From a virus, in the IMG/VR virus record IMGVR_UViG_3300042507_006854, positions 82,950-146,949 of that record: a stretch of 64,000 bases of DNA. The stretch is one strand, 5' to 3'. This document shows, piece by piece, positions 11,881 to 29,859 of the stretch (positions within the stretch are counted from its first letter, which is position 1; each line of letters begins with the position of its first letter). The notes below the pieces were generated by a model that did not search any database, was not told the origin of the DNA, and saw nothing but the letters and a program-made list of their open reading frames with translations. The position numbers and the translations under genes were made by a program.

Positions 11881-11885
11881 AGTTT

Positions 11886-11954
11886 ACCATCCCCTGTCAG
11901 ACACTATTCGGCGCTCTCTCTTGGTGAGCGCCTACTTCCGGTCTAACTGGGCAA
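11886..11954 (-). ncRNA. predicted circular RNA 1 (69 nt, or 66 nt if the terminal G is 11952)
   Basis: Lies between the ribozyme terminal G and the IGS-matched AUGGU|AAAC site; rod-like fold CCCAGUUAGAC/GUCUGACAGGG plus GGCGCUC/GAGCGCC. Confidence 0.65.
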
Positions 11955-12202
11955 CTTATGTTATCGTGCGGGAGTTTACCCCGCACATCTCTACGTCACC
12001 GTAGAGTTCAGACTATATCTTGTTTACGTTTGCACGTAAATCAGGGCGCTCGTGGGAAGATTACTGTCCGTTCTGGACTCGCTTCCTAGTCGTTACACCT
12101 TTTTCGTATTCCTACGAAACTTGGCTCGGTATTGTCTTTGCCGCGTTAGCGGCAAAGAGTTCCACCGAATTCACCCCGAAATGGCCTAAATTTTAAAAGA
12201 TC
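11955..12202 (-). ncRNA. group I ribozyme copy 1, permuted (no upstream exon, no P2)
   Basis: Minus strand: P3 UCGGGGUG/CGCCCUGA, P4 UCGGU/ACCGA, P7 ACGACUA/UAGUCU, J8/7 AAGAUA, P9 and P9.1 hairpins; IGS GCCAU at 12185-12181. Confidence 0.9.
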
Positions 12203-12236
12203 GATAATAATATTTACACGTAAATTTATGTTTTTT

Positions 12237-12947
12237 TTAAAAAATATTTAAATTTGAAGAGAATGTTTCTTCAACAATTCTTCTTGCTTCTTTATCCTCA
12301 GAATCTTTAACAGCGTAAACTAACTTATTATTATAAATACTACATTTATAAATAGAATCTCCAGCTAAGTTTTTAATTTCTTTAAAGTTGCCTTTAAAAT
12401 CAATTAAATATGAACGATAAACGCCATCCAAATCTGAAACAGTTATAATAAACCTGTCTTCTTGTTCAAAAACATTTGTTAATCTATAAATAAATTTATA
12501 TTCAAAAGGTAATTTAAATAGTTCATCGTTAACAATTAATTTATCATGACCATGTTTATGATCTATAGAAAACAATTTATTTTGAATCAAGCAAGAGCTA
12601 AACGATCTTGTTATTATGTTCATATCTCCAATAATATTTAAATTGGAATCTATAGGGATATTAATATAACAATATACAATAGGTGTATTTAAACCTTGAT
12701 TAAAACCAGCTGTATAGCCAAGATAAAGATTATTATCTTTAATTAAAATATGTGGATTACACTCTACGAGAATATCTCCATAAATGCCATATTTCGGGGT
12801 ATTAATTTCAGATTCAACATTATTCGAATCTTTCTTCCAAATTTTCCACGGAACGAGTTCGTATTCTCCGCCAAAATTTAATTTAATAGAATTTTCTGCA
12901 GAACAATATAGTAAGAAATTAGAAGATAAATAAGGTTGATGTTTCAT
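12237..12947 (-). CDS. hypothetical protein (beta-propeller-like)
   Basis: Long ORF, beta-strand-rich, with ECNP motif. Confidence 0.65.
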   Translation of the reverse strand: MKHQPYLSSNFLLYCSAENSIKLNFGGEYELVPWKIWKKDSNNVESEINTPKYGIYGDILVECNPHILIKDNNLYLGYTAGFNQGLNTPIVYCYINIPIDSNLNIIGDMNIITRSFSSCLIQNKLFSIDHKHGHDKLIVNDELFKLPFEYKFIYRLTNVFEQEDRFIITVSDLDGVYRSYLIDFKGNFKEIKNLAGDSIYKCSIYNNKLVYAVKDSEDKEARRIVEETFSSNLNIF

Positions 12948-12964
12948 TTTTTTATTAATTTTGT

Positions 12965-13711
12965 TTATTCCAATGAATCTAAAAGAATGTCCAAACTCCG
13001 TGAAGATGTAGTTGAAGGGTCATTGCCTCCACAGTTTTTTCTTAGTTCCATATACCCAGGATAAGTATAACCAGGTGGTTTAAATTTATTAGGCGGTTTA
13101 CAACTATCACCATAATTGACTCCAGCACCCGCTTCTACGAGTGAATAATTACAACCACAACCACCGCTACCATTTTGTTGATTTCTTTGAGCTTGTCGCA
13201 TAGCTCTTTCTAAAGTTGCCACTGGATCCATGTCACCCTCAAGTTGTGCAGCATCAAAAGCGTCATAGAATTCTTGTTCTCTGTCGGTTGGTCCGCCCGA
13301 TTCGCAACCTGTTAACGCACTAGCTACGGCGGCAGCGCTCCCTGCACCAGCTAACCATTTAGCCGTGCGCGCGGGACCACTTTGTTTAAGTTCTTCTGTA
13401 GCTTTATCTATCATACTATTACCAATACCATTTGCAATTTTTGACTGTAATTCTTGACAAGTGTAATTACTATCCGATCCAGGAAAAAATTTTTCATTAC
13501 TCTTGCCAGATTTAAGGTTAGTATAAGATTGATGAAATCCTCTACCACCATTCGGACCCCAATGAGAAGTTTTCCAAGAGCCACCCAAAACAATGTCATC
13601 TGGTGTTGGTAAAGCTCCACAACTATTTAATTTATCTGCCGCAGCTTTTTTAGCGCAACTTGGGAAAGCAAATCGCATGGCTTTTATAAATTCAATTACA
13701 GCTTTTATCAT
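12965..13711 (-). CDS. Ala/Gly/Cys-rich hypothetical protein (cargo of cassette B)
   Basis: Hydrophobic AGAGSAAAVASALTGC segment and GCGC motif. Confidence 0.7.
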   Translation of the reverse strand: MIKAVIEFIKAMRFAFPSCAKKAAADKLNSCGALPTPDDIVLGGSWKTSHWGPNGGRGFHQSYTNLKSGKSNEKFFPGSDSNYTCQELQSKIANGIGNSMIDKATEELKQSGPARTAKWLAGAGSAAAVASALTGCESGGPTDREQEFYDAFDAAQLEGDMDPVATLERAMRQAQRNQQNGSGGCGCNYSLVEAGAGVNYGDSCKPPNKFKPPGYTYPGYMELRKNCGGNDPSTTSSRSLDILLDSLE

Positions 13712-13713
13712 AT

Positions 13714-14649
13714 TTAAAATCTCCTATAATCGGGTTTGTTTTGAATGTTTGTAGTATTTGGTTTTAATGGGTTCATATTTAAAACTCTATTACCAAAAAC
13801 CTCTACATCAAAATATTTTCTAGTTTTTACTTCGACATATGGAAAATGAATAAAAATTATAAATTCTAACGGTTTTTGAACAATACTCTTGTCATTATTA
13901 AATTCATTTAGTAATGAAGATCTTAAACTTGAAGTTAAATTATTAAAAGTTGATGAATTCCAACTTTTCGCCGCAATATGTGGAATAATAGATCTTTGTG
14001 GTAAATTATTTATTATATTGTAAATAGATTCTATAAAAAGATATGTAATTGATCTATTAATAGATGGATCCATTAAAAATTCTATATTAGAATTTACAGG
14101 CGTATTTTTTAGAGGGCCATACCACGGATTTGTTCCGGATGGGTTCGCTGTATAATATACATCATGATAAAAACTGCCACATTTATTATTAGCAGATAAT
14201 GAATTAAAAAGTTTTTTATTTTCTAATTCATAATTAATTGTGTTAGCGAAGACCTCAAGGCTATCCCTATTAATTATTTGATTTTCTCTATTAATTGGAT
14301 AATAGAATCCTGATATTAATGATAATTTACTATTTAAATATTTAATTAAAGGATCAGGATTAGAATTTTCATTATTATTTACCAAGGTCGTGGGATATGG
14401 ACGACTAACGTCATTAGTAATATCAACTGTTATTAAACGAGATGGATAAAAATTAATATCAATATTTGCAATATTTGTTCGAAAACCTTGTTCATGATGA
14501 ACTATTGTAGACAGTTCTTCAATATTAAGACCTGTTTCAGGAGTTTTATCTAAAAAAACTACTCGGGCTGCATACCATTGAGGATTCGTTGGGCTGAATT
14601 TTTGAGTTAATGGGGTTAATGCAGTATTCATATTTATGTATAGCTCCAA
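13714..14649 (-). CDS. hypothetical protein (cargo of cassette B)
   Basis: 311-aa ORF overlapping the end of paralog B; start uncertain. Confidence 0.7.
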   Translation of the reverse strand: MELYINMNTALTPLTQKFSPTNPQWYAARVVFLDKTPETGLNIEELSTIVHHEQGFRTNIANIDINFYPSRLITVDITNDVSRPYPTTLVNNNENSNPDPLIKYLNSKLSLISGFYYPINRENQIINRDSLEVFANTINYELENKKLFNSLSANNKCGSFYHDVYYTANPSGTNPWYGPLKNTPVNSNIEFLMDPSINRSITYLFIESIYNIINNLPQRSIIPHIAAKSWNSSTFNNLTSSLRSSLLNEFNNDKSIVQKPLEFIIFIHFPYVEVKTRKYFDVEVFGNRVLNMNPLKPNTTNIQNKPDYRRF

Positions 14650-17378
14650 ACTTTAAGTGGACCTCCGTTTATAGTCGTCCAGCGGTCTAAAATTGTATAA
14701 CCATTGCCTAAAATAGGCTCAGATATATAAATATCACTACCCTGACCGCTCAATTTACAATAAATATCATTATTTGATAATTTAAAGCATCCTCCAGAAT
14801 TTGGTGGAATATTAGCGATAGAATAATAATTATAATTACCAGGTTTAATTCCAGTAAAATAATTTTCAAAATATTGTCCTATAAGAAAACTTTTAATTCT
14901 ACGGTCATTCGCGGTATAATTAACAATTTCTGGCAAAAATTTTCTTATCTTTGCAATGTAAGAATTTCTTTCAAACTTTCTATATTTTAGTTTATTTTTC
15001 CAAAAAGCTTCATTTAAAGAATTAAATGAGATACTATAAAAAGTTTTTTTTGTATTATATTCTTGTAACATCATTATCATTTTAATATAAACATCTTGTA
15101 CCGAATTAGATCCATAATAATCATGCACTAATAAAAATTCATTTGTTGTTCCACATGGATTTTCACTTGTTGATAGGTATTCAATAAATAATTGAGTACC
15201 ACTTGGTATAATTCCATTCCAAGTTCCGGTATTAAAAGTTTTACCGCCATTCCCAGTTGTATAAATTCCACTGTATAACTTATAAAACCAAGTATCTTTT
15301 ATAGGAGTTGTTTGTTTTAAATGGTCACTAATTTTATATAAATCATTATTTATTAAATGATATCCAAATATAGATTGATTAGCTTGCTCTGTAATTTGTT
15401 GGGTTGTTAAGCCTGGATATAAATTATATAATGCTGGATTTTGGGCAACCCAATCTTGAGTCACGTATCCACTTTTTGGCCAAAGACCACTACCCGTAGT
15501 AGCTGTATTAAGTCTTTCTATATATGGTTTAGAATATAATCCAGAATCTGGAAATACAAAACCACTATTATTATGAAAAGAGTCTAGGTCATACCCAAGA
15601 ATTGTAATTCCAGAAACTACTTTTCTATATTCTAAACTTGGGGCCGATAATCTTCTTATATAATCTCTTCCGATTAGTATAGTTGTTTCAATTCCGCTAT
15701 TATGAATTATATTACTCCAATATCTTTGTTGTGTAGTGTTTGTTGTTAATGCGAATCCAGACCAATTAATTCCGTTAGATGACTTAAAACCGCTAGAAGT
15801 TTGTGAATAATTGTCTGGAATAATAGTCCATTCTTTACCATCATGAGTAATTCCGGCCCAGCTTGTATTAGCTGGTAAAGTTCCTACAGACCATCCGCTA
15901 CCATTTGTAGAAGTAAGATATTGATTGCCATATGATGGTATCCCAATAAATCTTCCATTTGCAAATTGTATATCTTTAATATAAAGACTTCCTGGAAGTG
16001 AGAATTCTTGCCAATTAATCCCATTTAGAGAAATAGCTCCCATAGGAGAAGAGTAAAATCCGCCACCAGCATTATTAATAGCGACCCATTTACCATCTCC
16101 ATAAGCTAAAGATCTATAATCTGTTTGGCCAGCAGATGTTGGTAATGCTGCATTTCCACTCCAATTTACTCCGTCTGTAGAAGTAATAGTTCTATCAGAA
16201 CTATCTCTACCTAATATTACCCAACGATTGATACCATTAAAAACAATTTTTTTGAACTGCGTCATTGGGAAATATTGACCGTTATTACTTCCATTTATAT
16301 CTATTTCTGACCATGTTTGTCCATTATTAGTGGACGTAGCCCCTTTTGCAAAAGAAACATTATGAAAGGATGGAAGAGCTATCCAACGACCTGTTCCATA
16401 AGCGATATTTGCCCATAGAGCGGTATGAGGTAAAGCTTCAATACGTAATTCCCAACTTTTTCCATTTTGTGATCTAGCGAGATCTGTTGTGCTACCACCA
16501 TATTTGTTTGACCCAACTGCAATCCAATAACCACTACCATAATCAGCATCCATCCACTGCCCATCAAGCCTTGTTTCAACATCTTTTTGTTGTTTAGACA
16601 GCGAAACTTCTATATTCTCTACAATTGTATTAAAAAATTGTTTTTCGGCTTTGTGTGGGCTAATATAGACTATTTTTTGGTTAGTTGGTGTTCCCGTACT
16701 TAAAATTAATAATCCATTCATTGGGGCATTTGGTAAAAATGCATTTCTAACTAATTTTGTGGGTATATTATATTTTGGATAAGTTTGTTGGAAAATTGTT
16801 TGTGGATATGGTACATAAGCCCCAGAATAAGATACGAAATGATTTTTTTCTTCTAAAGATTTAATAATCGGGTTATTAATATTAGGAGTTTTATATGTTG
16901 TAAAATATCCTGATAATGTATTTGTATTTGATACTTTCCATTCTCTTGGAAAAGAAAATCTTGCGTAAGATTTAAGAGGGTCTGTATTTCTAACATGTGA
17001 CGCTGGTAATTTAAGCATCTTGCTATAAAATTTTTGGTCAAAAAAATCTAAATGAATTAAATTCATTTTAAAACTTTCTAGCTCCCCATATTTTTTTTCA
17101 AAAAATTCTGAAAAAGCTTTATAATAAATATCTGAAGGTAATTTATTATTTGACCATATAACTTTGCCGTAATACCCAGCACTATTACTATCATTAAAAA
17201 ATTCTATTTGTTTTTCTGCAACAATCGCATGATTTGGATTTTTTAAAGTTCCAAAATTTGCGTTTTTTGTAATGAATGACGCCAATGCCGCATTTTTATT
17301 AGGAACTAAATTTACGTTTTCAAGTAACGAAAGTGTTCCGCCTAATCCAAGATTAGTTGCATCATTATAAATACTCAT
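14634..17378 (-). CDS. ribozyme-associated paralog B (914 aa) with inserted Asp-box/beta-propeller repeats
   Basis: Family motifs (NFGTLK, KIVYISPH, LKQTTPIKDTWFYKLYSG, TFNTGTWNGIIPSG) plus repeated SxNGxxW / STDGVNW. Confidence 0.8.
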   Translation of the reverse strand: MSIYNDATNLGLGGTLSLLENVNLVPNKNAALASFITKNANFGTLKNPNHAIVAEKQIEFFNDSNSAGYYGKVIWSNNKLPSDIYYKAFSEFFEKKYGELESFKMNLIHLDFFDQKFYSKMLKLPASHVRNTDPLKSYARFSFPREWKVSNTNTLSGYFTTYKTPNINNPIIKSLEEKNHFVSYSGAYVPYPQTIFQQTYPKYNIPTKLVRNAFLPNAPMNGLLILSTGTPTNQKIVYISPHKAEKQFFNTIVENIEVSLSKQQKDVETRLDGQWMDADYGSGYWIAVGSNKYGGSTTDLARSQNGKSWELRIEALPHTALWANIAYGTGRWIALPSFHNVSFAKGATSTNNGQTWSEIDINGSNNGQYFPMTQFKKIVFNGINRWVILGRDSSDRTITSTDGVNWSGNAALPTSAGQTDYRSLAYGDGKWVAINNAGGGFYSSPMGAISLNGINWQEFSLPGSLYIKDIQFANGRFIGIPSYGNQYLTSTNGSGWSVGTLPANTSWAGITHDGKEWTIIPDNYSQTSSGFKSSNGINWSGFALTTNTTQQRYWSNIIHNSGIETTILIGRDYIRRLSAPSLEYRKVVSGITILGYDLDSFHNNSGFVFPDSGLYSKPYIERLNTATTGSGLWPKSGYVTQDWVAQNPALYNLYPGLTTQQITEQANQSIFGYHLINNDLYKISDHLKQTTPIKDTWFYKLYSGIYTTGNGGKTFNTGTWNGIIPSGTQLFIEYLSTSENPCGTTNEFLLVHDYYGSNSVQDVYIKMIMMLQEYNTKKTFYSISFNSLNEAFWKNKLKYRKFERNSYIAKIRKFLPEIVNYTANDRRIKSFLIGQYFENYFTGIKPGNYNYYSIANIPPNSGGCFKLSNNDIYCKLSGQGSDIYISEPILGNGYTILDRWTTINGGPLKVWSYT

Positions 17379-17386
17379 AAGTTTTT

Positions 17387-17452
17387 AACCAACAGAAGAA
17401 TTTTTTTTCATACCGGGATTCAATCCGGCCGAAATGATTTACTTCCACTTAT
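17387..17452 (-). ncRNA. predicted circular RNA 2 (66 nt)
   Basis: Between terminal G 17453 and the GGUU|AAAAAC site matching IGS GACC; rod-like fold. Confidence 0.65.
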
Positions 17453-17704
17453 CAACGTGTTATCGTGCGGGAGTTTACCCCGCACATCTCTACGTCACCG
17501 TAGAGTTCAGACTATATCTTGTTTACGTTTGCACGTAAATCAGGGCGCTCGTGGGAAGATTACTGTCCGTTCTGGACTCGCTTCCTAGTCGTTACACCTT
17601 TTTCGTATTCCTACGAAACTTGGCTCGGTATTGTCTTTGCCGCGTTAGCGGCAAAGAGTTCCACCGAATTCACCCCGAAAGGTCATATTAATATTTTAAA
17701 GAAC
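17453..17704 (-). ncRNA. group I ribozyme copy 2, permuted
   Basis: Core 17458-17680 reads identical to 11959-12181; IGS GACC at 17684-17681. Confidence 0.9.
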
Positions 17705-17751
17705 AGTAATAATTACACTTAAATATTTGAAATGTAGATTTTTTTATAAAA

Positions 17752-18519
17752 TTATCTTTTATATTGACTTGGAACTGGGAAATTATTACATTTTTTGGGT
17801 TCTATATCATTATTATTTAATAGTCTATAACTTTGTAGATTTACTTTATTTTTTGATTTAAATTTAATTATAGGAGAGGTAAAAACAATATCTAGATTTA
17901 AGGCATGAGGAACAATAGTCCCACGATTTCCAGTTTTTGATTCTAATTCTATTTGTTTTTGCTCGGTTGGTATACTTCCCATTGCGTAACCATAACAATC
18001 AAAATAATCTTTTTCCGGATTAGTAGCGTCAGTCCATTGGTTGTTTATATTTTTATATCTAATTAAACCAAGATTTAATTCAAGATCTTCTTTTTTATAT
18101 TCATTATTCAAGTATTTATTTAATAAAGATGAGAATTGCTTTGAAGAACGAATATCTTGATTATTTTCAGTATAATTGCTTCCTAAAGATTTAAACTCTA
18201 ACGAAAATTCTTGAAAGTCTGGTTGTGGTCCTTCCCATTTTGGGCTTTTAGGGCCGATTCTTGGAATAAAATTTGTATAGGGTTTTGTTGAGAAATTTCC
18301 AGGTTTTAAAATTTTCTTATAGTGTTGAGAGCGTACTATTTTTTGATTATAATTTTCAACAATTACCGATTCAGAATCTTGTGTTAAGATGTTAGTAATA
18401 TTTATAAATACTTGATCTGGCGGAGCCACCGAAGTCGTTTCTAAATTAATCCGTTTTCCGCCCAGAGAAATAGAAGTTCTTACACCATGTTTAAAATTTG
18501 TTGTGTCGATATTAATCAT
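17752..18519 (-). CDS. hypothetical protein (cargo of cassette C)
   Basis: 255-aa ORF; C-terminus weakly resembles 13714..14649. Confidence 0.7.
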   Translation of the reverse strand: MINIDTTNFKHGVRTSISLGGKRINLETTSVAPPDQVFINITNILTQDSESVIVENYNQKIVRSQHYKKILKPGNFSTKPYTNFIPRIGPKSPKWEGPQPDFQEFSLEFKSLGSNYTENNQDIRSSKQFSSLLNKYLNNEYKKEDLELNLGLIRYKNINNQWTDATNPEKDYFDCYGYAMGSIPTEQKQIELESKTGNRGTIVPHALNLDIVFTSPIIKFKSKNKVNLQSYRLLNNNDIEPKKCNNFPVPSQYKR

Positions 18520-18532
18520 AAATTTTATTTTT

Positions 18533-19387
18533 CTAACCTATTACTGGCCATAGTTGTGCCCCTCCGTTCTGTGAAGAATTTTGTGCTTCTCCGTCTATTT
18601 CATCTGAACAGCTATCGCCCCCATCGTCTGTTTCGTCTAAATCTTCCTCTTTTTCATCTTCTTCTTCTTCGTTTTCGTCGTCATCGTCTTTATCGGGCGG
18701 ATAATCTTTATTACGTTTTCTATTCTTATCGGGTCTTTTATCTCTACATCCTGGACAATTTGGATCATTATTACTTATTACCGTATCATCGGGATTTAGT
18801 AATTCATTTGCCAAAGCGCCTACCGCTCCTGCAGCGAGAGTCGCGGCGGCTCCAACTCCTTGAGGACTACTGAGAGCGCCATCTATCGCAGCTTTTGTAG
18901 CCGCTTTAGCTTCTGCATTTAAAGCTGTTTGCTCCATTTTTGCTAAGCCATGAGCATGCTCTCTTATAAAATTTTCTTTACGTACAGTTTGATTTAACAG
19001 GTCAGATTTTCTCACCTCGTTAAAATTTTCCATTAGAGATTTAGCGCTTGTATCTCCACGCCAAGCTGCTTGTTTAGACGCTTTATCCCATAAGCTTGCT
19101 GGAGAGGATGGTTTGAGAATGTTGTCTCTTAAATAACCTTGCATTTCGGGCCTATTAAGTTGTGCCCTTGCAGCTTGAGTTATTCCATCTCGACCAGTAT
19201 TATTTACGATAGTATTACTAACTTCACCGATTTTATATCCAGGTTTACCAACACCAGCCTTTAATCCTTGAGAAATACCTCTTGATGTTGACCACGATTT
19301 ACTTACAGCCTTTGCTGCTGCAGCCACTGCAGCGCTTTGTGTCGCAGCTCTTGCGGCGAGTCCACCTAATAGTAAAGGAAATCCCAT
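18533..19387 (-). CDS. Ala-rich protein with hydrophobic segment, CPGC motif and acidic tail (cargo of cassette C)
   Basis: Coupled to paralog C by TAATG overlap; GAAATLAAGAVGALA, CPGC, D/E-rich tract. Confidence 0.75.
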   Translation of the reverse strand: MGFPLLLGGLAARAATQSAAVAAAAKAVSKSWSTSRGISQGLKAGVGKPGYKIGEVSNTIVNNTGRDGITQAARAQLNRPEMQGYLRDNILKPSSPASLWDKASKQAAWRGDTSAKSLMENFNEVRKSDLLNQTVRKENFIREHAHGLAKMEQTALNAEAKAATKAAIDGALSSPQGVGAAATLAAGAVGALANELLNPDDTVISNNDPNCPGCRDKRPDKNRKRNKDYPPDKDDDDENEEEEDEKEEDLDETDDGGDSCSDEIDGEAQNSSQNGGAQLWPVIG

Positions 19388-21252: not shown

Positions 21253-21260
21253 ATTTTTTT

Positions 21261-21331: not shown

Positions 21332-21579
21332 CAACGTGTTATCGTGCGGGAGTTTACCCCGCACATCTCTACGTCACCGTAGAGTTCAGACTATATCTTG
21401 TTTACGCTTGCGCGTAAATCAGGGCGCTCGTGGACAGTTTATTGTTTTGTGCTACTCACTGTCTAGTCGTTGCACCTTCTACTTACTATTGCACTTCAGT
21501 AGCTTGGCTCAAGATTGTCTTCTTAAAAAGAGTTTCCTTGAATTCACCCCGAAAGGTCATATTTAAATTTTTAAAGAAC
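21332..21579 (-). ncRNA. group I ribozyme copy 3, permuted
   Basis: Same core with compensatory changes (P4 UCAAG/CUUGA; P8 UUUACGC/GCGUAAA); IGS GACC at 21558-21555. Confidence 0.9.
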
Positions 21580-21644
21580 ATCCTTTATTACACATTTTTA
21601 AATAAAAACCTTGTTTTTTTTAAAAAAAACTTTATAATTCTTTT

Positions 21645-22676: not shown

Positions 22677-22885
22677 TAAAAAAATAATTCTTTATTAAAA
22701 GCCCAGCCAGTTAATACCAATAGCCCCATTTGTAAAAATGATGCCCAACAGAATGGTGGTTCTAATTTTATACCAAATCCTAAACGTATAAAAATTAAAC
22801 AAGCGGCTACAGCAAATAATGTTATTGAAACTATCAACATTAAATTGACTACTTTTTTGATGATTTTCTTAGTTTGGGTTTTCAT
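22673..22885 (-). CDS. small two-TM membrane protein (holin-like?)
   Basis: ATG at 22885; two hydrophobic helices. Confidence 0.55.
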   Translation of the reverse strand: MKTQTKKIIKKVVNLMLIVSITLFAVAACLIFIRLGFGIKLEPPFCWASFLQMGLLVLTGWAFNKELFFY

Positions 22886-23207
22886 TTCGCCTAGATTCCA
22901 GAATAGCAACCATTTGCTCTATCTGCCTCAACCTTATTTCTATAAGTTCTAATGTTTTGTTTTGCGAAAGATCTATTTGATTTTTAATTTCTAATTGGCC
23001 CAAAATAAGCTCAATTCTTTGAACCTTTTCTGAAGTTTTTTGGTATTCAGTTTTTGTAATAAAATTGTTTTGTAAATATAAACTGGCGACCATAAATGCC
23101 AAGATTGCCAATTTCCATATATTATCAAACGATAAAAAATCTGATAAATGTACGGGCTTTGGATTATTTGCTACAATTTTTTTAGTATTTTTATTAGAAG
23201 TAAGCAT
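22869..23207 (-). CDS. membrane-anchored coiled-coil protein
   Basis: One TM segment followed by a heptad-rich tail; GTGTAA motif upstream. Confidence 0.65.
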   Translation of the reverse strand: MLTSNKNTKKIVANNPKPVHLSDFLSFDNIWKLAILAFMVASLYLQNNFITKTEYQKTSEKVQRIELILGQLEIKNQIDLSQNKTLELIEIRLRQIEQMVAILESRRNENPN

Positions 23208-23241
23208 GGTAAAAACGTATGATATTATATATTACACATAA

Positions 23242-23901
23242 ATGGCATATATTAATACAGATATACCACTTTTTTCTGCTTATTTAGATACAAGTTTTTT
23301 ATATGATAAAGAATCTCGGAGTACAAATGAGTTTATTCCGGTAGAAGTGTTTGGATTTACCTCTTTAAATCGGCGTTGCGCCCTTTTTTCTGTAATGACT
23401 GAAATGGGTAGCGTACATGCTCGTGTTCCTATCCATTATTTAACAGATCTTCTGCCAGAAGAAGGTTTAACGAACTTTCCATTAGATTGGCTAGAACTTT
23501 GGGATTGTTACTCTCCATATGTTACAGTGAATAGGTACGAATATTTAAAACATAGTGCTTGTAAAATTGTATTGAAAAATCGGGAATGGCATGACGCTAC
23601 GTATTTAATGACATTTGATTGGGCTTATGGGCCGCAACACCAAACTGGCCAAAGTGAAAATCCTGGGGGTCATAAACAGGGGCATCTTCTAATTGGTAAA
23701 GGTGGTCAATATTTTTTCCAGCCTGGAAATCGTATTGTTTGGCGTGATGGGGGCGCTTTTATAGGAAAAGAATTAAAAGGGCACGAAAAATGGAAAGTAT
23801 TTAGTAAGGAATTTTCTTGCGAACAAACTGGTAGTCGCTGGTTTGCTGGTGAAGAAGAACTTTATTTTTATCAGTTTGAACCTAATAAAGATAAGTCTTG
23901 A
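23242..23901 (+). CDS. phage hypothetical protein
   Basis: LELWDCYS, YLMTFDW, HKQGH, QPGNR motifs. Confidence 0.75.
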   Translation: MAYINTDIPLFSAYLDTSFLYDKESRSTNEFIPVEVFGFTSLNRRCALFSVMTEMGSVHARVPIHYLTDLLPEEGLTNFPLDWLELWDCYSPYVTVNRYEYLKHSACKIVLKNREWHDATYLMTFDWAYGPQHQTGQSENPGGHKQGHLLIGKGGQYFFQPGNRIVWRDGGAFIGKELKGHEKWKVFSKEFSCEQTGSRWFAGEEELYFYQFEPNKDKS

Positions 23902-23934
23902 ATTTTAATTCATTTAATTATAATATATTCAACA

Positions 23935-24558
23935 ATGAATAATACTGTTGAATTAATTGGTTACTATGGTTCTGATGAAGTAATTGCCTGTTCTGCTTGG
24001 ACTTCTACTTCACGTAATTTGACAGAAGAAAAGCGCGAAAGAATTGAGGGGTTGATTAATATGCTTTGGTCTAATGGGCACGAGACTCCATTTGAAAAGG
24101 GTGTCGTTCATTTTTTAGTAAATACAGATATTGCTACTCATATTCATCTTCTCAAACATCGTATTTCGAGCATCAATGCTGAATCAGCGCGCTATAAAGA
24201 ATTAAAAGAAGATAAATATTATGTTCCTCATGATTGGCCCATTGAATGGATTGAAAAATTAGAAAACTACACATCGCAAGGATTGAAATTATACCATGAA
24301 TGCGTCGATAGTCTTACAAAGCATTATGGAATTGATCGAAAGCGCGCTAAAGAATCAGCAAGATTTTTTAGAACCTATAACACTCAAATTGAAGCAGATG
24401 TTATGTTTAATATGCGTAGTTTTGCTAATTTCTTAAAATTAAGAGATAGTGAGCACGCTCAAAAAGAAGTGCGAGACATTGCTCAGCAAATGGCGCAAGC
24501 AGTAAAGTCTATAGAAAATAGACCTTTTAAATATACTTTAAAAGTCTTTGGTTATTAA
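23935..24558 (+). CDS. thyX: flavin-dependent thymidylate synthase
   Basis: GHETPFE, KHR.SS.N.ESARY, N.RS..NFLKLR...HAQ.E. Confidence 0.92.
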   Translation: MNNTVELIGYYGSDEVIACSAWTSTSRNLTEEKRERIEGLINMLWSNGHETPFEKGVVHFLVNTDIATHIHLLKHRISSINAESARYKELKEDKYYVPHDWPIEWIEKLENYTSQGLKLYHECVDSLTKHYGIDRKRAKESARFFRTYNTQIEADVMFNMRSFANFLKLRDSEHAQKEVRDIAQQMAQAVKSIENRPFKYTLKVFGY

Positions 24559-25140
24559 TTAGGGCAAACTAATTTTAACTAAGGCGTATCCGTTTTCGTC
24601 TTTACGGCTTAAGAATTTTCCGATAACAACGATTCCGTCTGTAGCTATACGACCATTCGATCCAACGTAAGCTGCATCTCCGATATCAGGAGCACCTCCG
24701 CCGCCACCACGATTGGTTTCATCAATATCATTGATAAGAATAAGACCTCTTGTTAATACTGGAACTGCTTGAATATCTTTAATAATAACATCCATTTCAG
24801 CAGCTTTACGAGAATTAAAGATTAATTTTTCGCCATTTTCATCAAATTCACGAATATCTTTAAGTAGAACACCTATTGCTGTTGGTACATCATCATGATT
24901 AACAACAGGTTCCACTTGACCAACTAATTCAAAATTTTGCGTTACAGTATTTGTATATACAGCGCCAGGAGCGGAAGATCCTAAGTCCAAAGGCCCTGCA
25001 GTTCTTTTATCAGAAGCTCCAGTTGATTTCCAGCTTCTTTTTGGCTTAACAAGAGTTCCTTTATTTGCAATAGCTGTGCAAGCAAAAAAGTTTAAAACTT
25101 CATGTTCACTATAATCTCTAAATGGAAGTAAGTTTGGCAT
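24559..25140 (-). CDS. putative capsid decoration/structural protein
   Basis: LLPFRDYSEHEV...DENGEKL...QAVPVLTRG...IGKFL; GTGTAA motif upstream. Confidence 0.5.
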   Translation of the reverse strand: MPNLLPFRDYSEHEVLNFFACTAIANKGTLVKPKRSWKSTGASDKRTAGPLDLGSSAPGAVYTNTVTQNFELVGQVEPVVNHDDVPTAIGVLLKDIREFDENGEKLIFNSRKAAEMDVIIKDIQAVPVLTRGLILINDIDETNRGGGGGAPDIGDAAYVGSNGRIATDGIVVIGKFLSRKDENGYALVKISLP

Positions 25141-25257
25141 ATATTGATATTACACTCAAAAAATAGATTATCTACTTTTTTTTAAATTAAATTATTTAAT
25201 TTATTTACATTACACTTTTTTTTATATTTAAATAGATTATTTATATAATTTATAACA

Positions 25258-25740
25258 ATGGATTTACAACAAATTTTAAATATACAAGAATTAGAAGGGT
25301 TACATCTCGATGTAATGTTTGGAGCAGTACCTAAACGTTTAATAGGAGATGTTTCTAAAAAATTTAATAAACGTAAAACAAAAAATTTATTTTATATAAT
25401 ATTCGGAGTTTATTTAAAGGAATCTAAACAATATATTGTATTTACGAGCGTATTTAAATCTTCTAGAAAAAAAATAGAAAATCAATGGTTTTCAGAAGTA
25501 ATGGTTGATTCAGCAGTATTTGAAGACAAACAGAAAGTTCTAGATTATTTATATGATTTTATGGATAATTTTGAAGAGCACGAAAGGATTATTAATGAAG
25601 AAATTATGAGTATGGGTATGATGCCAGCCATAGAAGCTTTTCGATATTTACTCATATGGAATAGAGGAATTTTCGATTATTTCAATATTTTTATTGAAAG
25701 CGAGAATAAAAAACGATTTAAATTTTTAAAATTGTTTTAA
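25258..25740 (+). CDS. hypothetical protein
   Basis: 160-aa ORF. Confidence 0.65.
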   Translation: MDLQQILNIQELEGLHLDVMFGAVPKRLIGDVSKKFNKRKTKNLFYIIFGVYLKESKQYIVFTSVFKSSRKKIENQWFSEVMVDSAVFEDKQKVLDYLYDFMDNFEEHERIINEEIMSMGMMPAIEAFRYLLIWNRGIFDYFNIFIESENKKRFKFLKLF

Positions 25741-25772
25741 CAACCGCTCATAATAATATTATTATACTAAAT

Positions 25773-25976
25773 TTAACGACAAGACGAAGAAGATGAAGAA
25801 TAACCGTCATGGCCAGGCCTTCCATAAAAAGGACAACTTGGCCCACATTGATGAATACTTGGAGGAGATTGGGGTGGACTAATAGGCCCTAGACTAGGGG
25901 CTCCTGGAATTCCACATGGATCAGGCGGTATGCAATTATTAATGGTTGAACCTGCAGATGATGTTGAAACGCTCAT
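25773..25976 (-). CDS. Ser/Pro/Cys-rich micro-protein 2 (MSVSTSSAGSTINNCIPP...)
   Basis: ATG at 25976; N-terminus nearly identical to the upstream paralog. Confidence 0.65.
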   Translation of the reverse strand: MSVSTSSAGSTINNCIPPDPCGIPGAPSLGPISPPQSPPSIHQCGPSCPFYGRPGHDGYSSSSSSCR

Positions 25977-25981
25977 AATAT

Positions 25982-26197
25982 TTATTTTAAAGTTTTTGTA
26001 GGTGATGGAGTTGGTGGTTGAGGACCCTGTGGTGGCATACCAGGGTAAGGATAAAAAGAATCTCCAGGGTTCATTGATGGGGGCCACTCTGTACACTGCC
26101 CTTGACCTGGATAATCAGGTCCAGTACAAGAAGATGAACTTGCTGGAGGAATACAATTATTTATTGTACCCCCAGCTGATGATGAAGCGGCACTCAT
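25982..26197 (-). CDS. Ser/Pro/Cys-rich micro-protein 1 (MSAASSSAGGTINNCIPP...)
   Basis: GTGTAATAATATTATT upstream; paralog of the next ORF. Confidence 0.65.
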   Translation of the reverse strand: MSAASSSAGGTINNCIPPASSSSCTGPDYPGQGQCTEWPPSMNPGDSFYPYPGMPPQGPQPPTPSPTKTLK

Positions 26198-26255
26198 AAT
26201 AATATTATTACACTTTTTTAAAAAAAATTGACTTATTTAAATTAAATGCTATAAT

Positions 26256-26480
26256 ATGTTTATGTATTGGCCATCTATGCAAGTATTAAAAAGCAGCGAT
26301 CTTTGGAAAAAGCTCGATAAAAAAATGAAATGGACTTTTATGGGTATGTGGACTGTTGAGGATTCACAAGTTCATTCTGATAACCCAGAATATAAATTAG
26401 AGCCAAATATGGCTTATATTAACAAAAGAAAATCAGGTTTTAAACCTCGCCCGAAACGAGAAGAAGAATTTGATGATTAA
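26256..26480 (+). CDS. hypothetical protein
   Basis: TTGACT...TATAAT promoter-like sequence directly upstream. Confidence 0.6.
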   Translation: MFMYWPSMQVLKSSDLWKKLDKKMKWTFMGMWTVEDSQVHSDNPEYKLEPNMAYINKRKSGFKPRPKREEEFDD

Positions 26481-26815
26481 TTTTGATAAGTAATATAAGC
26501 AAATACTGGAGCACTACCATTAGTTGCTACCAGTCTTATATTGGCAATAGGAGAATCAAAGAAAATAGGGTCTCCATATCCAGCGCCAACTCCCGTAGCT
26601 GTATAAAAAGAAAGTGCATTTGCTACCCCACCTTCTAAAAACATAGGGTGTTGAGTTAATTCTGTTTTAGCTTGTAAATTAATATCTACACTAGAACCGC
26701 TAGCATAAATAACTACAAAACCATTTTTACATAAAGCTGTGTTAACCCATCGTCCAGTAAATGGGGCAGATTGTCCGGTTGCTAAAAATTCGGTCTTAAT
26801 AAGAGAAGGGTTCAT
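26477..26815 (-). CDS. small beta-rich putative structural protein
   Basis: GTGTAA motif upstream; beta-sandwich-like composition. Confidence 0.55.
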   Translation of the reverse strand: MNPSLIKTEFLATGQSAPFTGRWVNTALCKNGFVVIYASGSSVDINLQAKTELTQHPMFLEGGVANALSFYTATGVGAGYGDPIFFDSPIANIRLVATNGSAPVFAYITYQN

Positions 26816-26872
26816 TATTCATAATTACACATAAAATAGATAGTTTTTGTTTTAAAATTTAAAATAATACAA

Positions 26873-27280
26873 ATGAATAGACAAAAAACAATATGCTTTT
26901 TACGCCAAATCTGTTTGCAATATGAAGTTAAAGTTAGATTTCGTACCCGTTTTGATAAAGAATTAGACGGAGAAGCAGATACTGAAAAAGAAATAATTTA
27001 TATAGATAAAAAATTACCACGTAGAGCCATGGCTGAAGCGGTATTTCATGAATTGGGTCATATTTATTGTGTCCGAAAAGGTATTTGGAATAAATTCCAT
27101 AAAGAGCATGATTATTCCGCAATCAAATCATTCAAAGCAGAGAATTGGATTGAACACTGGGCCAAACGCGAATGGGATGCGTGGGGTATGAGAAAAATAT
27201 TTGGACAGTATCGATTTGTTTATTTAAAAAGCGAAAAGAAAAAATTAGTAAAATGGTTTGAAAAAAAATTCAACTTATAA
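26873..27280 (+). CDS. HExxH metallopeptidase-like (ImmA/IrrE-type) protein
   Basis: FHELGH followed by a downstream E..(W)A motif. Confidence 0.65.
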   Translation: MNRQKTICFLRQICLQYEVKVRFRTRFDKELDGEADTEKEIIYIDKKLPRRAMAEAVFHELGHIYCVRKGIWNKFHKEHDYSAIKSFKAENWIEHWAKREWDAWGMRKIFGQYRFVYLKSEKKKLVKWFEKKFNL

Positions 27281-27285
27281 ACTTA

Positions 27286-29385
27286 TCATAGGGGTGGATC
27301 AATACAAACCCCGATACCCCCAGATAGAGTAAAACATCCAAAAACTCCAGGAGGAATATCTGATATTGTTGCATAATCATAAGGCAATACTTTTTTCCAT
27401 TCTACTTTTTGTCCGGAGATAAAAGTATCTTCGATCAAATTATTATTTGTTAATCTAAAACCGGCACGAGTTGATATACCGGTTGGAAGTCCAGGGCGAT
27501 TTCTGAGAGGAATGCCAGCATATCCTGTATAAGAACATGACATTGGGTCAGAAGGGTTAATATAGGTCTTACAGTATCTACCCACACCGTCTTTTGGATT
27601 ATTTTTAACAAGATCTAAACGGCCCATCAAATCAATCATTTTTCTTACTTTTGCATTACCTTTTGTAATTCCTCTTGACCATAAATAACCATATAATCGA
27701 GATTTCGCTTGTTTACTTGCTTTTCTACTGGCTAAATAAGATGCTTCATATTGATTATTTGCACTAGCAGTAACTTTATATCCATAAAATATACCTGAAC
27801 CTAATAAACCACTAGGGTTTTCGGAATATTGATAAATTCCGCTCCCACTTTCAGAAGAAAGGATGAAAGCATTAGAGATATATACATTTAAATTTGGGGT
27901 CGTAATTTCTGAATTTTTCAATCTGACCGTTTCAATAGAAAAAGGTGTTCCGCTTGGAATTATTCCATTCCAAGTGCCAGTGTTAAAAGTATTTTTTCTA
28001 TATACTGGCTCATACAATTTATAGAACAATGTGTCCTTTAAAGGAATTTGTTGTTTTAATCGTGCCGCATCAAAATTGTAAAAACGTTTAGAAGAACCAC
28101 TTGTTATCTTAGTGATATAATTTAAGCCAGTATAATTATAATCAAAACTGGAGACGCTTGTTAAATTTCCACTTTGTAATAAATAGACATCTCTTGAATT
28201 AATTATTCTACCATTACTTCCAGTAATTGGAATACGGCTTGAAGAAGATAATTCGGCCCAAAATCCGGCGAAATTTTCAATAGCGTGAGGACTTACGTAA
28301 ACAATTTTTTTAGATGATATCCCAGTACTTACAATGATTATGTCACTAATTTTATTTCCATTATTTTCAAAAGTAATAACACTATTATATCTTAATGCTG
28401 GGTAGCTTTGAATATTATAGGAATGGGGATATGTTATCCAGTTATTATTAGCTGGAAGATTTCCACTTGTATTCCCTACAACACCATTCACAGATGAATA
28501 AATTTTATTTTTACCGTTAGAAATTCTTGTCGTTGCTAATTTAAAAAATCCTTCTAATTCAATTTCTTCTGAAACAGGTAAAGGATTTGATCCACTTGTG
28601 GAGCTTGAACCTGTAATTTGCCAATTATTTCCCGTAGGCAAAGTATTATTTCCAAGAAGAACATACAAAGGACGAAAATTTAATCTCCATTGATCTCTTT
28701 GTCTTAAAACCCATCCACTTTGCGTAGGTACAGATATAAAACCAGATATTCCAGATACAAAATTATTATTTTGAAACCAAATCATATCAACTGGTATAGA
28801 ATTAGAAGAATTTACATATCTTGTTTTATTATTTATAACCCCATTTGGAACAAAAATTCCATTAATTGGGAGGGAGGACTGACTTACTATAATATTTTGA
28901 CTTTTTGTAAAACCGGAAGACAATGCGAAAAATTTTTGCTGTTCTCCTTGCGAAATTCCAGTCACGCCACTTTGAATAGTTATAGAAGTAACTCTTGAAG
29001 ATAAACGGTTAAAACTTGCAAAAAGTGGATCATAAGGATTATTTTGATCGATTGATGAATTGCTTTGATATGTTAAGACTTGACCATTTAAAACAATTTC
29101 GCTAAGAGTTTCTTGAAAATAATATTGTGGTGCAGATTCGTTTTTTATTTCAATTGGATAGTAACCTTGCGTCTCATTATCAAAAATGACCAATTTCTCA
29201 ATCGGTTTTCTCAAAGTTCCAACGTTAATAGTTTTTAAATCTATTTTAGAATAACTATTAAAATCTTTTATCGTCTTATTTAGACTGATTGGGGTAGAAG
29301 TTGAAATTTTTTGCTCAGACTTGCGAATGTCTACTAGATAATCTTTTTTAGATAATCCTAATTTTTTCCTTTTAAAGTTATTCAT
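27286..29385 (-). CDS. ribozyme-associated paralog D (699 aa)
   Basis: NVGTLR, KIVYVSPH, LKQQIPLKDTLFYKLY, TFNTGTWNGIIPSG, GCFTL..CIDPP. Confidence 0.8.
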   Translation of the reverse strand: MNNFKRKKLGLSKKDYLVDIRKSEQKISTSTPISLNKTIKDFNSYSKIDLKTINVGTLRKPIEKLVIFDNETQGYYPIEIKNESAPQYYFQETLSEIVLNGQVLTYQSNSSIDQNNPYDPLFASFNRLSSRVTSITIQSGVTGISQGEQQKFFALSSGFTKSQNIIVSQSSLPINGIFVPNGVINNKTRYVNSSNSIPVDMIWFQNNNFVSGISGFISVPTQSGWVLRQRDQWRLNFRPLYVLLGNNTLPTGNNWQITGSSSTSGSNPLPVSEEIELEGFFKLATTRISNGKNKIYSSVNGVVGNTSGNLPANNNWITYPHSYNIQSYPALRYNSVITFENNGNKISDIIIVSTGISSKKIVYVSPHAIENFAGFWAELSSSSRIPITGSNGRIINSRDVYLLQSGNLTSVSSFDYNYTGLNYITKITSGSSKRFYNFDAARLKQQIPLKDTLFYKLYEPVYRKNTFNTGTWNGIIPSGTPFSIETVRLKNSEITTPNLNVYISNAFILSSESGSGIYQYSENPSGLLGSGIFYGYKVTASANNQYEASYLASRKASKQAKSRLYGYLWSRGITKGNAKVRKMIDLMGRLDLVKNNPKDGVGRYCKTYINPSDPMSCSYTGYAGIPLRNRPGLPTGISTRAGFRLTNNNLIEDTFISGQKVEWKKVLPYDYATISDIPPGVFGCFTLSGGIGVCIDPPL

Positions 29386-29424
29386 AATAGTATCACTATA
29401 ATATTAATAAATTATTATATGTTT

Positions 29425-29616
29425 ATCCGCCATCCAGATGTCAGTTACTAGCCCGAGTAATTCTCCGACCATGAAGAATTTTCCCAGTTGGGTCCGAATC
29501 TGGTAGGTCATTACAGCATTGCCATTGTGAATTGATTCACCATGCTCAATCCGCTATATTTATAGCTCTAATTTAAAGCGATAAAGGTAGCGGATTGAGA
29601 ATACAACGTGTCTCAT
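29425..29616 (-). ncRNA. predicted circular RNA 4 (192 nt; alternative 68 nt)
   Basis: Between terminal G 29617 and UGGCGGAU|AAAC matching IGS GUCCGUUA; multiple hairpins. Confidence 0.55.
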
Positions 29617-29859
29617 CATTGTGTTATCGTATAAGTGTTTATCTTATACATCTTTGCGTCACCGCAAAGTTCAGACTATATCTTCTTTTCTTTTGAAAAG
29701 TTCGGGCGCTCTTGGGCTATTTTATTGTTGGGACTCAACAGCCTAGTCGTTACACCTTCCATCCTATCTTTCCCAGATGGCTTGGCTCGGGATTGTCTTT
29801 TTATAAAGAGTTCCCCCGAATTCACCCGATAACGGACATTTTTTTAAATTTTAAAGAAC
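29617..29859 (-). ncRNA. group I ribozyme copy 4, permuted (most diverged)
   Basis: P3 UCGGGUG/CGCCCGA, P4 UCGGG/CCCGA, ACGACUA/UAGUCU, AAGAUAUAGUCUGAAC; IGS G at 29837. Confidence 0.88.

What the first reader, a model, noticed from the sequence alone, without database searches (positions are those of the whole stretch)
11886..29859. Four naturally permuted group I ribozymes predicted to make circular RNAs
Seen: four minus-strand group I cores with an intact G-binding P7 (ACGACUA/UAGUCU) and compensatory changes in P4, P7.1 and P8. Each starts only ~25-35 nt after a GTGTAA promoter-like motif, with no upstream exon, no local P1 hairpin and no P2. A G lies 14-15 nt before J3/4 in every copy, and the guide starting at that G pairs, U.G first, with a site DOWNSTREAM of the terminal G: copy 1 GCCAU with AUGGU|AAAC (11886); copies 2 and 3 GACC with GGUU|AAAA (17387, 21261); copy 4 GUCCGUUA with UGGCGGAU|AAAC (29425). 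Three different guides each match their own downstream site. In copies 2 and 3 the exon start AUA also pairs with the UAU next to the guide G (P10). Established: placing the 3' splice site before the 5' splice site (permuted intron-exon design) circularises the exon; this is an engineered method for group I introns and occurs naturally for group II introns. Inference: this is a natural, multi-copy phage circRNA-producing system. I do not know of it being described but cannot check the literature.
Basis: partly seen in the sequence, partly recalled or inferred. Interest (0 to 1): 0.96.

Follow-up and report, generated by a model that had tools for sequence, protein, structure and literature searches.

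The report
Permuted group I ribozymes in phage leaders
Four self-splicing-type RNA enzymes in this phage have their two splice sites in reversed order in front of virion-type genes, so each should cut its gene's message free and close a small RNA ring, a layout I found in print only for engineered constructs and one coral mitochondrial intron.

Summary
There are four minus-strand group I cores. Each lies 28-31 nt behind a genome-wide GTGTAA gene-start motif and has no upstream exon and no local P1. Each also has a guide at the position where a conventional relative (L092) carries its internal guide sequence.

Each guide pairs, U.G last, with a site 66, 66, 71 or 192 nt after the terminal G and 5-39 nt before the start codon of a complete gene.

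I collected 37 non-redundant homologous units from viral and metagenome contigs:
- The four core P1 pairs are canonical in all 37, and position 2 shows four different pair types.
- With site windows chosen without using the guide, own guides matched in 17 of 20 units, against a mean of 6.2 for shuffled guides (p <= 5e-5).
- The terminal G sits where ORF reconstruction places it in conventional relatives, and it is kept in 53 of 54 units.
- P10 support is weak to moderate.

No RNA or biochemical data could be obtained, so cleavage and ring formation are inferred.

I found no published natural phage or bacterial example. The closest in print are engineered self-targeting/PIE constructs and the coral ND5-717 intron. 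Earlier AI notes from this scan describe the same layout on other phage DNA.

The parts
12214..12219 (-). copy 1: GTGTAA gene-start (promoter-like) motif
   Evidence: Sequence read. Genome-wide, 19 of 76 GTGTAA are followed at 8-24 nt by the first ATG of an ORF, against 2.4% for permuted hexamers.
12179..12185 (-). copy 1: guide (IGS) GCCAUUU, begins 10 nt before GGUGAAUUC
   Evidence: same position as the IGS in conventional relative L092
11952..12178 (-). copy 1: group I core, P3 to P9.1, then GAUAACA..UUG with terminal G at 11952 (G11955 is a less likely alternative)
   Evidence: (223/226 identical to copy 2)
11886..11951 (-). copy 1: 66-nt spacer ('exon', predicted ring). It ends in the P1 substrate strand GGAUGGU, with predicted cleavage after U11886.
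   Evidence: The fold has a closing stem next to both ends; z = -4.74.
10261..11880 (-). copy 1: downstream gene (539 aa) of the KLGLGG N-terminal family
17713..17718 (-). copy 2: GTGTAA motif
17681..17684 (-). copy 2: guide GACC
17453..17680 (-). copy 2: group I core with terminal G at 17453
   Evidence: 68.3 bits to RF00028
17387..17452 (-). copy 2: 66-nt spacer ending GGUU, predicted cleavage after U17387; predicted junction UUGGUU^AUAAG
14634..17378 (-). copy 2: downstream gene (914 aa), same N-terminal family
21588..21593 (-). copy 3: GTGTAA motif
21555..21558 (-). copy 3: guide GACC
21332..21554 (-). copy 3: group I core with terminal G at 21332
   Evidence: 81.6 bits to RF00028
21261..21331 (-). 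copy 3: 71-nt spacer ending GGUU, predicted cleavage after U21261
19387..21252 (-). copy 3: downstream gene (621 aa), same N-terminal family
29869..29874 (-). copy 4: GTGTAA motif
29830..29837 (-). copy 4: guide GUCCGUUA
   Evidence: the same guide and site context occur in relatives L216 and L378
29617..29829 (-). copy 4: group I core with terminal G at 29617
   Evidence: 76 bits to RF00028
29425..29616 (-). copy 4: 192-nt structured spacer ending UGGCGGAU, predicted cleavage after U29425
   Evidence: fold z = -4.96
27286..29385 (-). copy 4: downstream gene (699 aa), same N-terminal family

Best explanation
Each unit is a natural group I ribozyme with reversed splice-site order. [quoted passage not shown]

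The inferred transcript starts shortly after GTGTAA and reads, in order: short A/U leader, guide (IGS), catalytic core P3-P9.1, terminal G (omegaG), structured spacer, P1 substrate strand ending in U, then the mRNA.

Inferred reaction:
- Step 1: free guanosine or GTP bound in P7 attacks after the U.G pair. This cuts the mRNA free 5-39 nt before its start codon and adds one G to its 5' end.
- Step 2: the new 3'-OH of that U attacks after omegaG. This closes the 66, 66, 71 or 192-nt spacer into a ring and releases the ribozyme.

Shown here: the anatomy, its conservation, and P1 covariation. Inferred: the start of transcription, both chemical steps, and what the products are for.

The most probable uses are these. 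Cleavage frees a start region that is otherwise held next to the docked P1, giving a short-leader mRNA like the phage's other messages. The retained omegaG suggests that ring closure or ribozyme release is also under selection.
For: Core: RF00028 gives 81.6, 76 and 68.3 bits. c1 is 223/226 identical to c2. Compensatory changes occur in 21 of 62 pairs.

Guide position: it equals the IGS position in conventional relative L092. There AGUGGU|GAGC pairs with GCCACU, 12 nt before GGUGAAUUC, and there is no P2.

omegaG:
- In L092 and L029, only the G of GAUAACA-N4-5-UG restores the capsid reading frame.
- That UG is present in 53 of 54 non-redundant units, including all permuted ones.

P1:
- In 37 non-redundant units, positions 1-4 pair in 37/37.
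- Position 2 is C-G 19, U-A 7, A-U 7 and G-C 4 times. Slid registers are far worse.
- Guide-independent windows: 17 of 20 own-guide hits, against a mean of 6.2 and a maximum of 13 in 20,000 guide shuffles. Random guides hit 16% of the time.

c1 and c2 share a 99% identical core but have different, mutually matching guide and site pairs.

Spacer structure:
- The spacer's closing stem puts its first nucleotides next to the P1 strand.
- In the sigma-70-promoter class, 17 of 21 spacer pairs show compensatory changes.

Downstream ORFs: they are complete and share an N-terminal domain. All four genes with that domain in the 147-kb contig have the ribozyme.

GTGTAA is a real gene-start motif, usually 8-12 nt before the ATG.
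Against:
- P1 is only 4 bp in c2, c3 and most homologs.
- P10 is weak: positions 1-2 pair in 33 and 29 of 37 units, positions 3-4 in 15 and 20 of 37, and one slid register reaches 29 and 23.
- Sites used for the per-position table were chosen with the guide. Only one search is free of that bias.
- Spacer sequences of c1-c3 are unrelated (53-63% identity). This argues against a sequence-specific role for the ring.
- Two relatives have spacers of only 22-25 nt. A ring that small is untested for group I chemistry.
- cmscan with its filters misses c1 and c2.
Confidence: 0.62

Rival explanations
1. Cleavage-only leader ribozyme. The guide-site P1 is real and guanosine attack trims the leader off the mRNA. 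The second step is inefficient or irrelevant, so the spacer stays attached to the ribozyme or is released as a linear piece, and the only selected product is the processed mRNA.
For: - The site always lies just before the start codon: 2-9 nt in most GTGTAA-class units and 2-40 nt in the other class.
- The phage's other messages have very short leaders.
- P10 is weak.
- Spacer sequences are not conserved among c1-c3.
- Spacers of 22-25 nt exist in two relatives.
Against: - omegaG, which established group I chemistry does not require for the first step, is kept in every permuted unit examined, at the position used by conventional relatives. The cores have meanwhile diverged to about 73% identity.
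- The spacer closing stem places the 3' splice site beside P1.
Confidence: 0.25
2. Conventional or trans-splicing intron. The true 5' exon lies elsewhere (an upstream gene or a separate transcript), and the downstream match to the guide is incidental.
For: c1 and c2 lie inside a run of same-strand genes, so read-through transcripts could carry upstream sequence.
Against: - Upstream ORFs end in stop codons before the GTGTAA motif, and no local P1 exists.
- Downstream ORFs start with a conserved N-terminal domain directly after the site.
- Guide and cis site covary across 37 units.
- Homologs with consensus sigma-70 promoters leave only about 10-25 nt before the guide.
Confidence: 0.04
3. Decaying intron relics with no activity. 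The similarity of the four copies reflects recent duplication only.
For: No homing endonuclease gene and no interrupted gene are present. c1 and c2 are nearly identical in the core.
Against: - Compensatory changes keep every core helix among c1/c2, c3 and c4.
- The same layout is kept in many unrelated contigs from marine, freshwater and other samples, with an intact P7, J8/7 and omegaG.
- Guide and site change together.
Confidence: 0.04

Closest known systems
[quoted passage not shown]
   Same: Same order of parts on one transcript: IGS and ribozyme first, then the segment to be circularised, then the target site complementary to the IGS. In that system P1 alone was enough for ring formation.
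   Different: Those are laboratory constructs with a T7 promoter. Here the layout is natural and multi-copy, sits in a gene's 5' leader, and the RNA 3' of the target site is a real mRNA.
Permuted intron-exon (PIE) constructs from T4 td and Anabaena group I introns (reviewed in PMC11394858)
   Same: The 3' splice site precedes the 5' splice site, and the exon is expected to become a ring.
   Different: As I recall, PIE splits the intron in a peripheral loop, so that two intron halves flank the exon. Here the core is in one piece, and only the P1 substrate strand is moved downstream.
ND5-717 giant group I intron of corallimorpharian mitochondria (PMC6545197)
   Same: A natural group I intron processed from a permuted precursor through a circular exon-containing RNA. 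It was reported as the first natural case.
   Different: It interrupts a protein gene and yields ND5 mRNA, and the permutation arises from a genome-sized insertion in P8. The phage units interrupt no gene, and their 'exon' is a short non-coding rod.
Natural circularly permuted group II introns of bacteria (PMC8637638)
   Same: Natural permuted self-splicing ribozymes that produce RNA circles.
   Different: They belong to a different ribozyme class with different chemistry (branching or hydrolysis). They are not tied to a gene's leader.
Conventional phage group I introns of the same sub-family, such as the capsid-gene introns at L092 and L029
   Same: Same core, same GGUGAAUUC / GAUAACA..UG landmarks, same IGS and omegaG positions; L092 also lacks P2.
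   Different: They sit inside ORFs, with P1 formed by the upstream exon, and splicing restores a reading frame.
Clostridioides difficile c-di-GMP-dependent allosteric group I ribozyme (Lee et al. 2010, as described in PMC3984707)
   Same: A group I ribozyme in a bacterial 5' untranslated region whose choice of cleavage site decides what precedes the start codon.
   Different: It has an upstream riboswitch aptamer and an upstream 5' splice site. No riboswitch was found in this window, and here the only 5' splice site is downstream.

Membership tests
Group I catalytic RNA (Rfam RF00028) | Conserved core: P3-P9 with the P7 guanosine-binding site and J8/7 | tested here: met
   81.6, 76 and 68.3 bits against a gathering score of 50. 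c1 is 223/226 identical to c2. Helices are kept by compensatory changes.
Group I intron (as an intervening sequence) | Interrupts a gene: upstream exon ending in U pairs with the IGS, and splicing joins two exons of one gene | tested here: not met
   There is no upstream exon or local P1. Flanking ORFs are separate and complete, and the downstream ones begin with a shared N-terminal domain.
Group I intron (as an intervening sequence) | IGS-substrate helix P1 with a U.G wobble at the cleavage site | tested here: met
   Present, but with the substrate strand downstream of the core. It pairs in 37/37 units with covariation.
Group I intron (as an intervening sequence) | Terminal guanosine (omegaG) at the 3' splice site | tested here: met
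   Position fixed by ORF reconstruction in L092 and L029. UG is kept in 53 of 54 units. For c1 the G lies one nucleotide further out than usual (+7 versus +5 or +6).
Group I intron (as an intervening sequence) | Guanosine-dependent self-splicing activity | not testable with these tools
Permuted intron-exon / self-targeting circularising ribozyme | 3' splice site upstream of the 5' splice site on one transcript | tested here: met
   Order on the DNA is guide, core, omegaG, spacer, U site. That all lie on one transcript is inferred from the GTGTAA motif.
Permuted intron-exon / self-targeting circularising ribozyme | Circular exon product with the predicted junction | not testable with these tools
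   No reads available.
Permuted intron-exon / self-targeting circularising ribozyme | P10 between the start of the exon and the 5' flank of the guide | tested here: inconclusive
   Positions 1-2 pair in 33 and 29 of 37 units, positions 3-4 in 15 and 20 of 37. One slid register reaches 29 and 23. There are 3 bp in c2 and c3, and 1-2 bp in c1 and c4.
Allosteric (riboswitch-coupled) group I ribozyme | Ligand-binding aptamer joined to the ribozyme | tested here: not met
   No riboswitch family matched anywhere in the window at gathering score or at E <= 0.1. Only about 28-31 nt lie between GTGTAA and the guide.
Lariat-capping (GIR1) ribozyme | Group I-derived core that caps a downstream mRNA by a 3-nt 2',5' lariat, without a U.G P1 site or omegaG splicing | not tested
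   Considered only as a functional analogue: a group I-like ribozyme that forms the 5' end of an mRNA (PMC3679873, listed). The units here keep an ordinary P1 with U.G and an omegaG. Its defining features come from my own knowledge.

The most novel reading that the evidence does not exclude
These units form a widespread phage gene-expression device with two functional products.

First, the docked P1 keeps the start region closed until guanosine attack. Translation of a family of virion genes would then be gated by ribozyme folding or guanosine-nucleotide supply, and the mRNA would receive a non-templated 5' G (a triphosphate end if GTP is used).

Second, the rod-shaped spacer is closed into an exonuclease-resistant ring that has a role of its own during infection, for example as a stable decoy or scaffold. 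This would explain why omegaG and the spacer stem are kept.
Probability: 0.25. Interest if true: 0.92.

Novelty: new variant of a known kind. Interest (0 to 1): 0.85.

Why it matters
If the predicted reaction occurs, it would matter in several ways.
- Phages would have a natural route to small circular RNAs by group I chemistry. This is a design that engineers arrived at independently for circular RNA production.
- It would show group I ribozymes working as stand-alone processing devices in 5' leaders rather than as introns.
- The family is large and diverse. It offers many natural guide and site pairs, compact cores without P2, and rings of 22 to 192 nt. These could be tested directly and might serve as new circularisation scaffolds.
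- It raises a testable question about phage gene control: why one family of virion-type genes (four of four in this contig) is expressed through a self-cleaving leader.

Tried and rejected
- cmscan in E-value mode found neither c1 nor c2, both over the whole window and over 11800-17800. This is a filter effect, because one search scored c2 at 68.3 bits.
- A fifth J8/7-like match at 63790-63799 lies in a GC-richer stretch without any core and was rejected as chance.
- The naive 'longest helix anywhere within 400 nt downstream' picks chance matches inside ORFs. A first cross-guide test over a 245-nt region was uninformative, with 41% cross hits. Both were replaced by narrow guide-independent windows.
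- Pattern TTCTTTAAAA..GRTGAATTC gave mostly chance hits: 95 of 107 matches had no core. In the metagenome scan, 84 of 100 stretches lacked the P7 motif, and the 14 distinct ones I printed were coding or other unrelated sequence.
- Pfam, PHROGs and the protein Atlas gave nothing for the four downstream proteins. tblastn of the 914-aa protein against cultured phages found nothing.
- Cultured-phage DNA hits to a homologous unit were conventional introns: Vibrio phage VEN terminase, Vibrio phage S4-7 polymerase, Pseudoalteromonas phage H101.
- The search for related loci failed with the N-terminal alignment A4. With A5 it returned only the known L081 contig.
- The sigma-70 and terminator scans were at chance level in this AT-rich DNA.
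- I looked for a stop-free reading frame around the c2 ring by eye and found none: all three frames hit stops.
- A helix between the omegaG region and the post-site leader is visible in the sigma-70 class, but not consistently in the window's copies. I did not use it as evidence.
Full report
WHAT IS THERE.

The window is the last 64 kb of a 146,949-bp IMG/VR viral contig with 32.6% G+C. It carries 15 tRNA genes and a tmRNA.

Four group I cores lie on the minus strand:
- Rfam RF00028 scores copy 3 at 81.6 bits and copy 4 at 76 bits.
- Copy 2 scores 68.3 bits.
- Copy 1 is 223/226 identical to copy 2 across the core.
- cmscan's filters miss copies 1 and 2.

An RNAalifold fold of the four copies recovers P3, P4, P5, P6, a P7.1-type hairpin, P8, P9 and P9.1. 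Of 62 pairs, 21 are kept through changes on both sides. P7 (CGACUA/UAGUCU) and J8/7 (AAGAUA) are invariant.

ANATOMY OF A UNIT.

On the minus strand each unit reads as follows:
- GTGTAA.
- 28-31 nt of A/U-rich leader with a conserved UUCUUUAAAA.
- The guide G.
- P3 and the rest of the core.
- GAUAACA, a few nucleotides, then UG.
- A spacer of 66, 66, 71 or 192 nt.
- A short strand complementary to the guide that ends in U.
- 5, 8, 8 or 39 nt of leader.
- The ATG of a 539, 914, 621 or 699-aa ORF.

GTGTAA is a real gene-start signal in this genome. Of 76 occurrences, 19 are followed at 8-24 nt (mostly 8-12) by the first ATG of an ORF. For 89 permuted hexamers the mean is 2.4%. Ordinary messages of this phage therefore probably have very short leaders.

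Upstream ORFs end in stop codons before GTGTAA, and nothing upstream can form a P1 with the guide.

ANCHORING THE SPLICE-SITE ASSIGNMENTS ON CONVENTIONAL RELATIVES.

A pattern scan of viral contigs returned both ordinary introns and units like these.

In L092, an intron in a capsid-type gene:
- The 5' exon end AGUGGU pairs with GCCACU, which lies 12 nt before GGUGAAUUC.
- There is no P2.
- Only the G of GAUAACA-AUCU-G gives an in-frame junction (...FQW-Y-SGYQTLNI).

L029 gives the same answer for omegaG.

So this intron sub-family normally lacks P2, carries its IGS directly before P3, and ends in UG a few nucleotides after AUAACA.

In the window's units the guide G lies 10-11 nt before GGUGAAUUC, and the UG lies 5-7 nt after AACA. 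These are the same places. UG is present in 53 of 54 non-redundant units of both kinds.

IS THE GUIDE-SITE PAIRING MORE THAN CHANCE?

For one copy with a 4-bp guide it is not. Random guides hit a narrow window 16% of the time. The case rests on homologs.

Scans of viral and metagenome contigs gave 37 non-redundant units with the same layout. They fall into two classes:
- A class with GTGTAA and UUCUUUAAAA, like this window.
- A class with near-consensus sigma-70 promoters (TTGACT, 17 nt, TATAAT) that leave only about 10-25 nt before the guide.

Guide and site pairs include:
- GGCC/GGCU
- GACC/GGUU
- GUCC(A)/(U)GGAU
- GUCCGUUA/UGGCGGAU
- GCCAUUU/GGAUGGU
- GCGUUU/GGACGU
- GGUCA/UGGCU
- GGUCC/GGACU
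- GGGC/GCCU
- GCCC/GGGU
.

At the curated sites, P1 positions 1-4 are canonical in 37/37 units. Position 2 is C-G 19, U-A 7, A-U 7 and G-C 4 times. Registers slid by 1-3 nt are far worse.

Those sites were chosen with the guide, so I also defined windows without it. These were omegaG+72..83 for the sigma-70 class and ATG-12..-2 for the other class. Own guides hit in 17 of 20 non-redundant units. Shuffled guides gave a mean of 6.2 and a maximum of 13 in 20,000 trials.

Inside this window, c1 and c2 have a 99% identical core. Even so they have different guides, each matched by its own site. Their spacers are 53% identical and their genes 64%.

SECOND STEP.

Three things speak for a retained 3' splice site.
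- omegaG is conserved across cores that have diverged to about 73% identity. By established group I chemistry, the first step does not need it.
- The spacer folds so that its first nucleotides pair next to the P1 strand, which puts the two reactive sites side by side. In the sigma-70 class, 17 of 21 spacer pairs show compensatory changes, and exon nucleotides 1-3 pair with the three nucleotides just 5' of GGCU.
- P10 gives some support. The start of the spacer can pair with the 5' flank of the guide at positions 1-2 in 33 and 29 of 37 units, and at positions 3-4 in 15 and 20 of 37. One slid register comes close, so I rate P10 as inconclusive.

Against a sequence-specific role for the ring:
- The spacers of c1-c3 are unrelated in sequence.
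- Two relatives have spacers of only 22-25 nt.

WHAT THE UNITS SERVE.

The four downstream proteins have no Pfam or PHROG match. They share an N-terminal domain of about 100 aa (KLGLGG ... N.GTLR.PN) with the proteins behind homologous units in other contigs.

One such homolog (L081, 1481 aa) has a concanavalin-like lectin domain and matches virion-structural and baseplate PHROGs.

In the 147-kb contig exactly four genes carry this domain, and all four have the ribozyme.

The sigma-70 class precedes a different, conserved, lysine-rich protein of about 130 aa with unknown function.

MECHANISM I COMMIT TO.

- Guanosine or GTP attack after the U.G pair releases the mRNA with one added 5' G and a leader of a few nucleotides.
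- The freed 3'-OH then attacks after omegaG, closing the spacer into a ring and freeing the ribozyme.

My odds for the anatomy as a functional P1 with first-step cleavage are about 0.85. For the full two-step reaction with ring formation they are about 0.6. What the ring or the extra G is for is unknown.

The idea that cleavage un-gates translation is inference from the site lying 2-9 nt from the ATG in most GTGTAA-class units.

COMPARISON WITH WHAT IS KNOWN.

- The topology equals the engineered self-targeting-and-splicing design with the Tetrahymena ribozyme, where P1 alone sufficed (PMC10457212).
- As I recall, it differs from classic PIE, which splits the intron.
- The one natural permuted group I case I found is the coral ND5-717 intron, which still interrupts a gene (PMC6545197).
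- Natural permuted group II introns make circles in bacteria (PMC8637638).
- The C. difficile allosteric ribozyme is a precedent for a group I ribozyme in a 5' untranslated region controlling what precedes the start codon (PMC3984707).
- Seven full-text searches found no natural phage or bacterial permuted group I ribozyme (and the listing).
- The library lacks most subscription journals, so absence of a report is not proven.
- Earlier AI notes from this scan describe the same layout on other phage genomes. I treated them as leads only.

LIMITS.

There are no RNA reads, no mapped transcription start and no biochemistry. For c1, omegaG could be G11952 (preferred) or G11955.

Noticed in passing
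window 29549-29560 and 29595-29606 (minus strand), inside the copy 4 spacer: Copy 4 has a second 8-bp match to its guide (UAGCGGAU, ending 68 nt after omegaG). It is buried in a perfect 12-bp hairpin whose other strand (CUCAAUCCGCUA) resembles the guide. Relatives L216 and L378 lack it. It could be a decoy, a regulatory alternative or chance.
   Followed up: partly
genome-wide; in the window for example 9945, 6502, 26213, 26830 (minus strand): GTGTAA preceded by A/T-rich sequence marks gene starts, with the ATG usually only 8-12 nt downstream. This implies near-leaderless messages and a -10-only type of promoter.
   Followed up: partly
window 12191-12200, 17694-17703, 21569-21578, 29849-29858 (minus strand): A conserved (G)UUCUUUAAAA lies between GTGTAA and the guide in all four copies (UCUUUUAAAA in c1) and in related contigs (L081, L020, L130, L216, L225, L308). 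Its role is unexplained. It is common in this AT-rich genome, so the motif alone is not specific.
   Followed up: partly
window 38549-39000 (minus strand): A phage-borne tmRNA scores 141.5 bits to RF00023, with a long insertion in the tag region of the alignment. ARAGORN did not call it.
   Followed up: no
window 30182-61008 (plus strand): There are fifteen tRNA genes. They include a 94-nt tRNA-Ile(UAU) call and a tRNA-Ser with anticodon ACU.
   Followed up: no
window 63700-64000: The last 300 bases of the contig are 49% G+C, against about 33% elsewhere. They contain a chance AGATATAGTC match. This may be a different genomic module or an assembly join.
   Followed up: partly
L010, L017, L022, L030, L041, L051, L054, L055, L063, L068, L071, L072, L078, L085, L088, L329, L352: A second class of the same permuted ribozyme sits behind near-consensus sigma-70 promoters. 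It has a 75-80-nt spacer with a strongly covarying rod structure. It precedes a conserved, lysine-rich protein of about 130 aa (..QTHG..TLDQIWGD..) that has no family match.
   Followed up: partly
L293:4300-4321 (minus strand); also L130 and L243: In these relatives the spacer between omegaG and the guide-matched site is only 22-25 nt. This would be a very small ring, or a cleavage-only variant.
   Followed up: no
L010, L022, L041, L068, L071, L072, L078 (sigma-70 class): The omegaG region (for example AAUUG|GAU) is complementary to the leader just after the cleavage site (for example AUCCAAUU), with changes on both sides such as CUGG with CCAG. The same leader could instead pair with the guide region. 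This may be a conformational switch (read by eye).
   Followed up: no
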